A stretch of 64,000 nt of DNA from the human T2T-CHM13v2.0 reference genome, Homo sapiens. Under the pieces are notes generated by a model that had not been told where the DNA came from, did not search any database, and saw only the letters and a program-made list of their open reading frames with translations. The position numbers and the translations under genes were made by a program. The stretch lies in NCBI RefSeq assembly GCF_009914755.1, contig NC_060933.1. One strand, 5' to 3'. Shown piece after piece: positions 29,636 to 32,890 of this stretch (the stretch's first letter is position 1; every line of letters starts with the position of its first letter).

Positions 29636-30031
29636 GTTTTAATTTGTATTTTAGTTCTAAAATTTCTACTTGGTTCTTCTTTAAAAGTTAGAGTCTAAAT
29701 ATTTTCTGTCTTTCTAGGCTTCCCCTTTCCTGTTCCTTTGGCTAGAGAGAAGAGGCTTTTTGGGGACCTCTTTTTGTCTATACCCATTAGTGTTTGTGGG
29801 CTGCCAGCCTGTTCAGCTCCAAGTCTGGGATATAGGAGGCAAAAAGAAAACCCAGGGAACCCATCTGTATGTTGTTCCTCAGGTCTCAAGGTCCCTAGCC
29901 AGTCTCCCTTTTTCTCCACGTTTCAGATTATTCTTTTGTTATGTATCTCCAGGGATTTTAGTTTTACTTGGTGGAGGAATAGGAAGAAGTGAGTCTATTG
30001 TATCTTGTCCAGAACCAGAAGTCCTTTTTGT
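29636..30031 (-). repeat. 396-bp inverted duplicate of 31138-31533
   Basis: Exact reverse complement. Three ORF-track peptides recur on opposite strands, identical across the shared arm (e.g. MEKKGDWLG... at 29695-29919 and 31250-31474). Confidence 0.97.
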
Positions 30032-30039
30032 GCAAAAGT

Positions 30040-30479
30040 GCTCATACCTGTAATCCCAGCACTTTCGGAGGCCAAGGCAGGCAGATCACTTGAGGTCAGG
30101 AGTTTGAGACCAGCCTGGCCAACATGGTGAAACCCCGTCTCTACTAAAAATACAAAAATTATCAGGGCGTGATGGCAGGTGCCTGTAATCCCAGCTACTC
30201 GGAAGGCTGAGGCAGGAGAATCGCTTGAACCCAGGAGACCCAGGTTGCAGTGGGCCGAGATCATACCACTGCACTCTAGCCTGGGCAACAGAGCAAGACT
30301 CAGTCTCAAAAAAAAAAAAAATTAGAACAGCACCTGACACATTAAGGAATAAATAATTAGTTATCTGAATGCAATAAATGTAAAAAGACAAACAAAAGTC
30401 AAGAGAAGGACACCCACTAGCAAAGAAGGCACCGAATCCTTCTGTCTTCTCCCCTAAATGTGGGCACAAAACAAGGGTG
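30040..30479 (+). repeat. 440-bp direct duplicate of 33352-33791 (5'-clipped Alu plus ~160 bp of its 3' flank)
   Basis: Same Alu-private variants (ttatcagggcgtgatggc, gagacccagg), same A14 tail and same flank ttagaacagcacctgacacattaagg...; 8 substitutions counted by eye. Confidence 0.97.
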
Positions 30480-30880
30480 CAAAAGCACTGACTGTGTTTG
30501 CCAAATGATTCAGCAGACAGGCAGAAGGGGGTGGCGCTCAGGCTTACAGGAAGGAAGGGTCAGAGAACAATGTTTTTGGGATGGTAGGGTCCTCATCATT
30601 TTTGTAGCATAAGAGGAAAAAATCAACAGGAAGAGATTAAAGATATGAGAGAGGTAAAAGGTTTGAAAGCGAGATCCTAGAGGGGGAATGAGATTTGGAG
30701 CAAGTAGAGACATTTTGGGAGAGAAAGACTGGCACCTCTTTCTCTAGGAGTGAAGAAATGAGAGGTGCAAGTAAACTGGAAAGGAAGCTGAGGAAAACCC
30801 AAGCATGACAGCTTACTTTGCTTGGTGAAGTGCAAAGCATGGTGGCTTTCAGAGAGTGGAAAAGATGGTGGTAAGGAACT
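30480..30880 (-). mobile_element. L2 fragment
   Basis: Purine-rich L2-like sequence (tgcaaaaagcactga; gagatttggagcaagtagagaca). Approximate. Confidence 0.5.
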
Positions 30881-31145
30881 TTTATCTTTTGGCTTTATGA
30901 TGTACTGCAAAGGACACCAGGTTTCACCCTCCTTCCTTAACCTTAAACTCAGTTTTCGCTTATGTTAAATGAGTATCATAATCCCTGCCGCAAAGCGTTG
31001 CTATAAGGATTTAACAATATCAAACCTATAATGAACCAGCTTCTAACTACCTCAGAAGTGCTACTGCAACTGTCTACTCCATTAAGACTTTTTTAGGATA
31101 ATGGGAATGTATTTTCTAAGATCTTCTTCAAAAGTTGACAAAAAG

Positions 31146-32890
31146 GACTTCTGGTTCTGGACAAGATACAATAGACTCACTTCTTCCTATTCCTCCACCA
31201 AGTAAAACTAAAATCCCTGGAGATACATAACAAAAGAATAATCTGAAACGTGGAGAAAAAGGGAGACTGGCTAGGGACCTTGAGACCTGAGGAACAACAT
31301 ACAGATGGGTTCCCTGGGTTTTCTTTTTGCCTCCTATATCCCAGACTTGGAGCTGAACAGGCTGGCAGCCCACAAACACTAATGGGTATAGACAAAAAGA
31401 GGTCCCCAAAAAGCCTCTTCTCTCTAGCCAAAGGAACAGGAAAGGGGAAGCCTAGAAAGACAGAAAATATTTAGACTCTAACTTTTAAAGAAGAACCAAG
31501 TAGAAATTTTAGAACTAAAATACAAATTAAAACACCAATCGAACCCCACAGAAAACATTGCAGCCCCACCCCCACTGGCCAAGAGCTAGTGCGGAGCCTA
31601 GACTTCCAGTTTTACCAACATGGCTGTAACAAGGTGACCCCTCTCTCCCACTGGGATGATGTCAGAGAAGGCGAAGCAGGGAGCATGAACTCCCTGTTCT
31701 GAAGTAATAAGGAACTGCCTCCCTGGGGTGTCAACAGAAGCCGAGGGGGAAGCTGTACTTCCATCCCCACTTGGTAGTACCAACAGAGTGGACTCCTTCT
31801 CCCACTAGTGCAGTGCCAGAGGGGGCCTGCTGAAGCAAAGGATTTCAGTAAGAATCTGGGTCTCATAACATAATACTCAATATGTTCAGAACACACTAGA
31901 AAATCACTAGTCAAACCACGAACCAGGAAAATCTCAACTTGAATAAGAAAAGACCATCAACAGAAGCCAACACTGAGAGGACACAATGTTGGAATTATCT
32001 GGTGAGGATTTTAAAGCAACTATCATAAAAATGCTTCAGTGAGCAAACATGGATGCACTTAAAACAAAAATACATAAAATCTCAGCAAAGTAATATAAGA
32101 CGTAAAGAAGAATCAAGTGAACATTTTAGAACTAAAAGATACTAATGAAAAACTCAATGGATGAGCTCAATGGAAAATGGGAAGAACAGAGTAAACAATC
32201 AGTGAAGTTGAAGTTAGGATAATAAAAATAACCCAATCTGAGAAATTACCCAATCTCTGAGAAACAGAGAAAAAACAGACTGGAAATAAATGACTGCAGC
32301 CTCAGAGTCCTATGTAACTATAACCCCCAAAAAATCTAATACTATGCCATTGGAGTTGCAGAAAGAGAAGAGAGACAAGGTGGGGCTTAAAAAAGTATTC
32401 AACAAAATAATGGCCGAAAACTTCCGAAATTCAGCAAAAGACATAAAAACAGATTCAAGAAGCTGACTAACTCTGAACAGTATAAACCTAATGGAATCTA
32501 TGCCAAGACATATCAGTTAATCTCCTGAAAACTAAAGACAAAGAAAAAAAATCTCAAAAATAGTGAGAGAGAAATACCACCTTATCCATAGGAGAAAAAA
32601 TAAAAATGGCAGCAAATTGCCCCTCAGAAACCATGGTCAGAAGGGAGTAGCACAGCATTGTTTCAAGGAACTGTAAGACCAGAATTCTACATCCAGTGAA
32701 AATACCCTTTAGAAATGAAGGGGAAATCAAGACATTATCATCTGAAGGAAAACTAAGAGAATTTGTCAATAGCAAATCTACCCTAAAAGATGCTCTTGAG
32801 ACAGAAAGGAAACGATAAAAGAATAATTTTGGAACATCAGGGAGGAAAAGTAAAAAATTGAAAGGGTAAAAGTACGGGTAAATGGAATAG
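31146..32890 (+). mobile_element. Old L1M (L1MC/MD-type) 5' UTR and ORF1
   Basis: gacttctggttctggacaagat start; ggattttaaagcaactatcataaaaatgctt; aaatgaaggggaaatcaagacatt...aaactaagagaatttgtc ORF1 C-terminus. Confidence 0.75.

What the first reader, a model, noticed from the sequence alone, without database searches (positions are those of the whole stretch)
29636..31533. Inverted arms are 100% identical while the co-inserted direct copy is ~1.8% diverged: candidate gene-conversion / flip-flop inversion
Seen: 0 differences in 396 bp between the inverted arms (1106-bp spacer), against 8 in 440 bp for the adjacent direct duplicate, 3 of them in non-Alu flank. If both arose together, about 7 differences would be expected (Poisson probability of zero about 0.001). 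Established: closely spaced inverted repeats undergo arm-to-arm gene conversion and mediate recurrent NAHR inversions. Inference: a miniature self-homogenising palindrome whose 1.1-kb spacer (30032-31137) may be orientation-polymorphic, which short reads would largely miss.
Basis: partly seen in the sequence, partly recalled or inferred. Interest (0 to 1): 0.8.

Follow-up and report, generated by a model that had tools for sequence, protein, structure and literature searches.

The report
Small perfect inverted repeat, likely self-homogenised
A 396-base stretch from the start of an old L1 element was copied backwards about 1.1 kb upstream of itself, and the two copies are still identical although a neighbouring duplicate has drifted by 1.8%; this suggests the two arms keep correcting each other, a known process seen here at an unusually small scale.

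Summary
Arms 29636-30031 and 31138-31533 are 396 nt and 100% complementary, with a 1106-nt spacer. The direct duplicate 30040-30479 vs 33352-33791 has 8 mismatches in 440 nt, 3 of them outside the Alu.

New anatomy:
- The right arm is native. It is 9 bp of flank plus the first 387 bp of an old + strand L1 that runs on past 31533.
- The left arm and the Alu+flank copy (B) form an 844-bp templated insertion between two single-copy sequences.
- B is flanked by a 9-bp direct repeat whose left copy includes the last 2 nt of the left arm. So the arm was probably there no later than B.
- The polarisable B/B' differences are split evenly between the copies, so they reflect real age.

Best reading (about 0.55): arm-to-arm gene conversion keeps the arms identical. 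Main rival (about 0.22): the arm is younger.

Flip-flop inversion is untested. The locus is absent from a 612-region catalogue of inverted-repeat-flanked candidate inversions. No ape or other human haplotype could be examined.

This is a new member of a known kind, of moderate interest.

The parts
29636..30031 (-). Left arm: derived inverted copy of 31138-31533 (9 bp of flank plus the first 387 bp of the L1)
   Evidence: 100% complementary to the right arm. Its outer side (up to 29635) is single-copy and does not continue into L1.
30030..30038 (+). Left copy of the 9-bp direct repeat GTGCAAAAG (last 2 nt of the arm, then G, then CAAAAG)
   Evidence: this 9-mer occurs 3 times in the 64-kb window, two of them at these junctions.
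30032..30039 (+). 8-nt junction between the left arm and the direct copy
   Evidence: The G at 30032 is a 1-nt insertion relative to the arm template (400 columns, 1 gap). The T at 30039 matches 33350 if 33351 is skipped.
30040..30479 (+). B: derived direct copy of 33352-33791 (an Alu lacking its first 21 nt, plus 158 nt of flank)
   Evidence: 440 nt, 8 mismatches. It lacks the 5' target-site duplication and the first 21 nt of the Alu that B' has.
30477..30485 (+). Right copy of the 9-bp direct repeat (last 3 nt of B plus the first 6 nt of C)
30480..31137 (+). C: single-copy native DNA upstream of the L1; it forms most of the spacer
   Evidence: Only a self match in the whole assembly.
31138..31533 (+). 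Right arm: native; the source of the inverted copy
   Evidence: Other genomic L1 copies align without a break across 31533 (31146/31147 to 32581/32895). The family's 5' end maps to 31147.
31147..32895 (+). 5' part of an old L1 (5' UTR and ORF1)
   Evidence: Pfam Tnp_22_dsRBD at 32651-32815, E = 1.1e-6, 29 bits against a cut-off of 22.2. Alignments to copies on C1 and C23.
33352..33791 (+). B': source of the direct copy, inside a complete Alu (33331-33643) with target-site duplication TTAGAACA, plus flank
   Evidence: The flank has only these two copies in the assembly.

Best explanation
The original order at this intergenic site was single-copy DNA X (to 29635), then single-copy DNA C (30480-31137), then a full-length old L1 on the + strand (from 31147), with an Alu and its flank (B') 2.2 kb further on. 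A repair or replication accident then inserted 844 bp (29636-30479) between X and C. The insert has two parts. One is an inverted copy of the 9 bp before the L1 plus its first 387 bp. The other is a direct copy of part of the Alu plus 158 bp of its flank.

The inverted piece looks like snap-back priming. The resected minus-strand 3' end at the start of C ends in TTG. It could pair with the CAA that the same strand carries at 31135-31137 and be extended for 396 nt. It was then joined to X without microhomology. The direct piece looks like a forward template jump that returned through a 3-nt GTG microhomology and left a 9-bp duplication.

That duplication contains the end of the inverted arm. 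So the arm is as old as the direct copy (one event) or older. The direct pair has since drifted by 1.8%, with changes on both copies, while the arms show none. The most likely reason is repeated or recent non-crossover recombination between the arms (arm-to-arm gene conversion, or template switching between arms), as in sex-chromosome palindromes but with 396-bp arms.

What is shown: the repeat structure, which copy is native, the junction sequences, and the contrast in divergence. What is inferred: the order of events, the snap-back mechanism and the conversion itself. The same recombination could occasionally resolve as a crossover and flip the 1.1-kb spacer; nothing here shows that it has.
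For: - Structure and identity.
- Only two 100% copies in the assembly.
- The right arm is native. L1 copies on C23 and C1 align from 31146/31147 to 32581/32895 across the arm's outer edge. Of the 38 other genomic matches to 30900-31400, none starts before window 31143. In the alignment of 8 other copies, shared similarity starts at the position matching 31147 and the upstream columns are unrelated.
- L1 identity: ORF1p C-terminal domain at 32651-32815.
- X and C are single-copy.
- B is the derived copy: it lacks the Alu's first 21 nt and the 5' target-site duplication that B' has.
- Junctions: 3-nt TTG/CAA match plus a 1-nt insertion at the arm's inner edge; a G(T) match plus a 1-nt skip at the start of B; a GTG match at the end of B; none at X|arm.
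- The 9-mer GTGCAAAAG lies at 30030-30038 and 30477-30485, with only one other copy in 64 kb.
- Of the 5 Alu-part differences, 2 are derived in B, 2 in B' and 1 is ambiguous, judged against 8 other Alus of the window.
- Statistics: p = 0.008 (all), 0.023 (flank only), 0.021 (non-CpG only).
- Age brackets: the lower bound for B/B' (3.9 or 7.8 My) lies just above the upper bound for the arms (3.8 or 7.6 My).
- The conversion rate needed for even odds of zero differences is about 1.4e-5 per site per generation (using a recalled mutation rate). That is below the 2.9-8.4e-5 per variant site measured for Y palindrome P6 (PMC3723533, abstract and passages).
Against: - No outgroup or second haplotype was available, so concerted evolution itself is untested.
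- The statistical contrast is only p about 0.01-0.02.
- The argument that the arm is not younger rests on 2-3 nt of the 9-bp repeat, a likelihood ratio of roughly 16-64. It also rests on my judgement that two independent hits at one site are unlikely.
- The direct pair B/B' (440 bp, 3.3 kb apart) has not been homogenised. Conversion would therefore have to favour the closer, inverted pair.
- No PRDM9-type 13-mer lies in or next to the arms.
- Known examples of arm-to-arm conversion have arms of kilobases to megabases. No measured rate for 396-bp arms was found in the two literature searches on the mechanism.
Confidence: 0.55

Rival explanations
1. The left arm is simply younger. B was inserted first between X and C, leaving a 7-bp duplication GCAAAAG. 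Much later a second break at the same spot was repaired by snap-back priming on the L1 start, which added the inverted arm. No conversion is needed.
For: Zero differences in 396 bp fits an age under about 3.8-7.6 My. The snap-back model works equally well from the start of B. The first event could mark a locally fragile site. The locus is absent from inversion catalogues, which gives no sign of ongoing recombination.
Against: The second event must hit the exact left edge of the first insertion's duplication. The arm's last two bases plus the inserted G must also reproduce, by chance, the GTG that precedes the other CAAAAG (1/16 to 1/64).
Confidence: 0.22
2. The arm and B are the same age and the arms escaped mutation by chance. 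There is no homogenisation.
For: The arm is AT-rich, with 1 CpG against 7 in B, so its mutation rate is somewhat lower. With CpG-type changes removed, p rises to 0.021.
Against: p = 0.008 to 0.02 (and the counts). The non-Alu flank of B has a similar GC content (0.39 vs 0.40) and 0-1 CpG, yet carries 3 differences in 158 bp.
Confidence: 0.03
3. Assembly or polishing artefact. Either the inverted arm, or only its perfect identity, is not real in the CHM13 genome.
For: This was not tested: no reads or second assembly were available. Perfect local repeats can in principle be over-polished.
Against: The whole structure is 1.9 kb, far shorter than the long reads used for such assemblies (general knowledge). 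The hub's annotation places a RefSeq enhancer of exactly 1200 bp (28690-29889) across the X|arm junction. That suggests the reference on which it was defined is collinear there (inference, not a tool result). The junctions carry ordinary repair signatures.
Confidence: 0.03
4. The inverted L1 start is a twin-priming product of the original L1 insertion, or the pair of arms are the terminal inverted repeats of a mobile element.
For: The arm's inner edge lies only 9 bp from the L1's 5' end. A preprint reports that about 85% of human inversions under 2 kb come from twin priming (10.1101/2021.12.20.472354, abstract and passages).
Against: The arms include 9 bp that other L1 copies lack. The arms are 100% identical in an element only 70-76% like its relatives. 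658 bp of single-copy non-L1 DNA lies between them. No target-site duplication flanks the pair. There is no second copy of the unit anywhere in the assembly.
Confidence: 0.01

Closest known systems
Sex-chromosome palindromes with arm-to-arm gene conversion (human Y P1-P8, X palindromes)
   Same: Inverted arms around a unique spacer, with arm identity higher than their age predicts. Conversion greatly outnumbers inversion (P6: 56 conversions vs 3 inversions; PMC3723533).
   Different: Those arms are kilobases to megabases long, lie on sex chromosomes, and often carry testis genes. Here the arms are 396 bp of L1 5' UTR in autosomal intergenic DNA. Conservation across species is shown for them and not for this locus.
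Polymorphic human inversions mediated by short inverted repeats (for example HsInv0193, HsInv0098, HsInv0045, HsInv0147 in Table S1 of PMC13629690)
   Same: Inverted repeats of 140-420 bp flanking 0.6-1.6 kb, all listed as polymorphic. The sizes match this locus.
   Different: Those repeats are mostly two independent transposon copies (SINE, LTR) rather than a local duplication. This locus is not in that table, and both orientations have not been seen.
Replication or repair template switching (FoSTeS/MMBIR-type templated insertions; short template-switch mutations in great apes, PMC5453318 and PMC7954356; fold-back priming)
   Same: The inserted pieces copy sequence from within 3.3 kb, one in reverse. 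The junctions show 1-3 nt microhomology and 1-nt indels. Such events create perfect inverted repeats in a single step.
   Different: As I recall, the short template-switch events in those papers are tens of bases; I saw only their search listing and abstracts. This one copies 396 and 440 nt. The pathogenic FoSTeS/MMBIR cases involve much larger segments.
Template switching between imperfect inverted-repeat arms that homogenises the arms and inverts the spacer (yeast, PMC8604942)
   Same: It gives both arm homogenisation and spacer inversion from one mechanism (abstract only).
   Different: It is described for short repeats in yeast genes and has not been shown for arms of several hundred bases in mammals.

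Membership tests
Palindrome kept uniform by arm-to-arm gene conversion | Two arms in inverted orientation around a unique spacer | tested here: met
Palindrome kept uniform by arm-to-arm gene conversion | Arm identity higher than expected from the age of the duplication | tested here: inconclusive
   0/396 vs 8/440 in the adjoining duplicate: p = 0.008, or 0.021 for non-CpG changes. The age link rests on junction anatomy, not on an outgroup.
Palindrome kept uniform by arm-to-arm gene conversion | Orthologous arms identical within each species but different between species | not testable with these tools
   No ape or second human assembly is held. The genome search reports no relatives for this genome.
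Inverted-repeat-mediated (NAHR) inversion polymorphism | Highly identical inverted repeats of about 140-200 bp or more at both breakpoints | tested here: met
   396 bp at 100%. For comparison, 72% of resolved balanced inversions have inverted repeats of at least 200 bp, and the catalogue range is 140 bp to 190 kb.
Inverted-repeat-mediated (NAHR) inversion polymorphism | Both orientations of the spacer observed among haplotypes | not testable with these tools
   Only one haplotype is held. No chr9 row at 93.98-94.04 Mb appears in Table S1 of PMC13629690. There was no hit in the supplements of PMC12229492, PMC13721702 or PMC12350169. The GRCh38 position is my estimate from a recalled gene coordinate.
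Templated insertion by template switching or fold-back priming | Inserted segments are copies of nearby sequence | tested here: met
   The arm copies 31138-31533 and B copies 33352-33791. Both sources sit in native context.
Templated insertion by template switching or fold-back priming | Microhomology and small indels at the junctions | tested here: met
   3 of 4 junctions have 1-3 nt matches; there is one 1-nt insertion and one 1-nt skip. The X|arm junction has none.
L1 twin-priming inversion | Inverted 5' piece and sense 3' piece of one retrotransposition event, made of L1 sequence only, inside one target-site duplication | tested here: not met
   The arms include 9 bp of non-L1 flank. Single-copy non-L1 DNA lies between them. 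There is no flanking duplication. The arms are 100% identical in an element 24-30% diverged from its relatives.
DNA transposon with terminal inverted repeats | Multiple copies, a target-site duplication and a transposase | tested here: not met
   The unit is single-copy. There is no flanking duplication. The arms are L1 sequence. The transposase criterion was not examined.

The most novel reading that the evidence does not exclude
This is an autosomal mini-palindrome with arms of only 396 bp that has been kept base-perfect for several million years by arm-to-arm conversion, with its own built-in clock: the adjoining direct duplicate, inserted at the same time or later. Occasional crossover between the arms flips the 1.1-kb spacer. 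That would show that concerted evolution works down to arm lengths near the lower limit for homologous recombination, outside sex chromosomes and without any gene to select for.
Probability: 0.45. Interest if true: 0.5.

Novelty: new member of a known kind. Interest (0 to 1): 0.35.

Why it matters
If ape and pangenome data confirm it, the locus would be a clean natural experiment. It is an inverted pair and a direct pair of similar length and similar or ordered age, sitting side by side in neutral DNA, where only the inverted pair stays identical. That would give a lower bound on conversion rates for sub-kilobase inverted repeats. It would also flag a class of small repeats that can bias short-read mapping; a RefSeq enhancer call overlaps the left arm. 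It does not change what is known about mechanisms, no gene is involved, and the nearest genes (BARX1, PTPDC1) are more than 20 kb away.

Tried and rejected
- Twin priming and a transposon reading were rejected (see rivals and membership tests).
- L1 target-site duplication, to prove that C is the L1's native flank: the 18-mer at 31129-31146 has no second match with up to 3 mismatches in the window. The L1 cannot be followed past 32895, so this stayed open.
- Other human or primate DNA carrying the X|arm junction: none in the prokaryote genome collection or in viral contigs, as expected.
- Literature on the locus: 'inversion' plus 'PTPDC1' gave nothing relevant.
- Papers not held: Porubsky 2022 in Cell, and two papers I tried to reach by PMC ids recalled from memory (the great-ape and major-SV-allele papers). 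PMC10028934 has no readable supplements. The supplement file of PMC12350169 was cut when stored and one file was unreadable, so its inversion tables may not have been fully searched.
- Rfam on 28000-35000: no family.
- PRDM9-type motif (recalled pattern): none in the arms.
- A first attempt to translate the L1 region failed because of stop codons. Stop-free frames were used instead; 1 of 13 matched L1 ORF1p.
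Full report
**1. The observation**

- The repeat finder reports arms 29636-30031 and 31138-31533: 396 nt, 100% complementary, 1106 nt apart. A direct string test confirms exact reverse complementarity.
- blastn of the region against the window gives the same pair as 400 columns with one 1-nt gap. It gives a direct pair 30040-30479 / 33352-33791 of 440 nt with 8 mismatches and no gaps.
- Five of the differences lie in the Alu part (30043, 30066, 30231, 30233, 30253). 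Three lie in the non-Alu flank (30434, 30453, 30471).

**2. What the pieces are**

A search of the whole assembly with the left arm gave 637 first-look candidates, of which 40 were scored. Two of the 40 are the arms themselves at 100%. The other 38 are 70-76% identical, many of them on C23. So the arm belongs to an old interspersed repeat.

That repeat is an L1, and the right arm is part of it.
- Copies on C23 and C1 align without a break to window 31146/31147 through 32581 and 32895. They run straight across the outer edge of the right arm at 31533.
- A stop-free frame at 32651-32815 on the + strand matches the L1 ORF1p C-terminal domain (PF17490, E = 1.1e-6, 29 bits against a cut-off of 22.2). 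It was the only one of 13 frames scanned that matched.
- The right arm is therefore a native part of a + strand L1. The left arm has single-copy, non-L1 DNA on its outer side, so it is the derived copy.

The arm starts almost at the L1's 5' end.
- With 30900-31400 as the query, none of the 38 other genomic matches begins before query position 244, which is window 31143.
- In an alignment of 8 other copies with 120 nt of upstream flank, shared similarity begins at the position matching window 31147. Upstream of it the copies look unrelated (read by eye).
- With looser scoring, two distinct loci gave low-identity alignments (64-71%) running 44-67 nt further upstream. I take these as AT-rich noise.
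- So the L1 is full length at its 5' end, and the arm is 9 bp of flank plus the first 387 bp of the element.

The rest of the spacer and the direct copy:
- C (30480-31137) has only a self match in the assembly.
- B' is a complete Alu (33331-33643) with TTAGAACA on both sides, plus flank. B lacks the first 21 nt of that Alu and the 5' duplication, so B is the copy.
- The non-Alu flank occurs only in B and B' in the assembly.

**3. Reconstruction**

The simplest original order is X | C | L1 ... B'. The 844 bp at 29636-30479 were inserted between X and C.

Junctions:
- X|arm: no microhomology.
- Arm|spacer: the copy runs 3 nt further (CAA/TTG) after a 1-nt insertion (G at 30032).
- Start of B: G and T match 33349-33350 if 33351 is skipped.
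- End of B: GTG is shared with the target.

B is flanked by GTGCAAAAG at 30030-30038 and at 30477-30485. The 9-mer occurs only once more in the 64 kb. The left copy consists of the last two bases of the arm, the inserted G, and CAAAAG. Removing B and one repeat copy leaves the arm joined through that G to the start of C.

A simple mechanism fits the arm. After a break between X and C and resection, the minus-strand 3' end (ending TTG) snaps back onto the CAA at 31135-31137 of the same strand. It is extended for 396 nt and then joined bluntly to X.

B fits a forward template jump that returned through GTG and re-copied CAAAAG.

Three histories are possible:
- One event with several template switches.
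- Arm first, B later. This explains all 9 nt of the repeat.
- B first, arm later. This needs a second hit at exactly the edge of the first insertion, plus a chance match of 2-3 nt.

I therefore consider the arm at least as old as B, with moderate confidence. These steps are inference from the sequence.

**4. Is the contrast meaningful?**

- Against 8 other Alus of the window, 2 of the 5 Alu-part differences are derived in B, 2 in B', and 1 is ambiguous. The changes accrued on both copies, as expected for age and not for error-prone copying.
- Only two of the eight differences look like CpG decay (30233, 30434).
- Fisher's test gives p = 0.008 for all differences and 0.023 for the flank alone. 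The six non-CpG changes give 0.021.
- Divergence of 1.8% (95% interval 0.8-3.6%) corresponds to 9 My (3.9-18) at 1e-9 per year, or 18 My (7.8-36) at 0.5e-9. The arms' upper 95% bound is 3.8 or 7.6 My (the rates are recalled).

**5. Mechanism for the identity**

If the arm is not younger, either chance (p about 0.01-0.02) or homogenisation explains it.
- With a recalled mutation rate of 1.2e-8, new arm differences arise at 9.5e-6 per generation. A per-site conversion rate of about 1.4e-5 per generation gives even odds of seeing none.
- Y palindrome P6 shows 2.9-8.4e-5 per variant site, and 56 conversions against 3 inversions (PMC3723533, abstract and passages). The required rate is therefore not extreme, although no measurement exists for arms this short.
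- As single-stranded DNA the unit pairs all 396 arm positions (-627 kcal/mol).
- No PRDM9-type motif lies in the arms, and no Rfam family lies in 28000-35000.

**6. Inversion**

Nothing here shows a flip.
- A 2026 study lists 612 candidate inversions flanked by inverted repeats of 140 bp to 190 kb, merged from five long-read or mapping studies (PMC13629690, passages).
- I read the first part of its Table S1. It includes polymorphic cases of the same size class: repeat 418 bp with a 618-bp inversion, 297/1077, 256/940 and 140/1550.
- No coordinate beginning 94004-94008 occurs in its supplements. No chr9 row lies in 93.98-94.04 Mb.
- The supplements of three other papers gave nothing.
- The GRCh38 position, about chr9:94.006 Mb, is my estimate from a recalled PTPDC1 coordinate. 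It fits the gene length given by the hub.
- A common orientation polymorphism is therefore unlikely. Rare flips are not excluded.

**7. Artefact**

I could not look at reads. The structure is much shorter than long reads. The hub's RefSeq enhancer of exactly 1200 bp spans the X|arm junction, which suggests that the older reference is collinear there (inference only).

**8. Verdict**

The finding is a small autosomal example of known processes: a templated insertion that created an inverted repeat, followed by probable arm-to-arm conversion. The decisive test, ape and pangenome haplotypes, could not be run here.

Noticed in passing
window 34077-34112 and 34423-34458: A 36-nt direct repeat with one mismatch flanks a minus-strand Alu (about 34113-34422). 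That is unusually long for an Alu target-site duplication.
   Followed up: partly
window 28690-29889 (hub annotation) vs 29636-30031: The RefSeq enhancer feature overlaps the first 254 nt of the left arm. The identical right arm carries no such feature. Signals from short reads cannot be assigned between two 100% identical arms, so the call may be half mis-placed.
   Followed up: no
window 29637-29683 / 31486-31539 vs 32103-32158: The outer ~50 nt of each arm are 84-86% similar to a stretch inside the same L1's ORF1 region. This is an internal similarity within the element.
   Followed up: no
window 33884-34110: A high-copy interspersed repeat (2993 first-look candidates, 74-83% identity) lies just after the unique flank of B'. 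The family was not named.
   Followed up: no
window 31147-32895: The old L1 is full length at its 5' end but cannot be followed beyond an Alu at about 32887-33187. Its 3' part and target-site duplication were not found in the window.
   Followed up: partly
window 30040-30479 and 33352-33791: The two direct copies (98.2%, 3312 nt start to start) are themselves a substrate for a 3.3-kb deletion or duplication. A deletion would remove the right arm and the L1 start. This was not checked in any catalogue.
   Followed up: no
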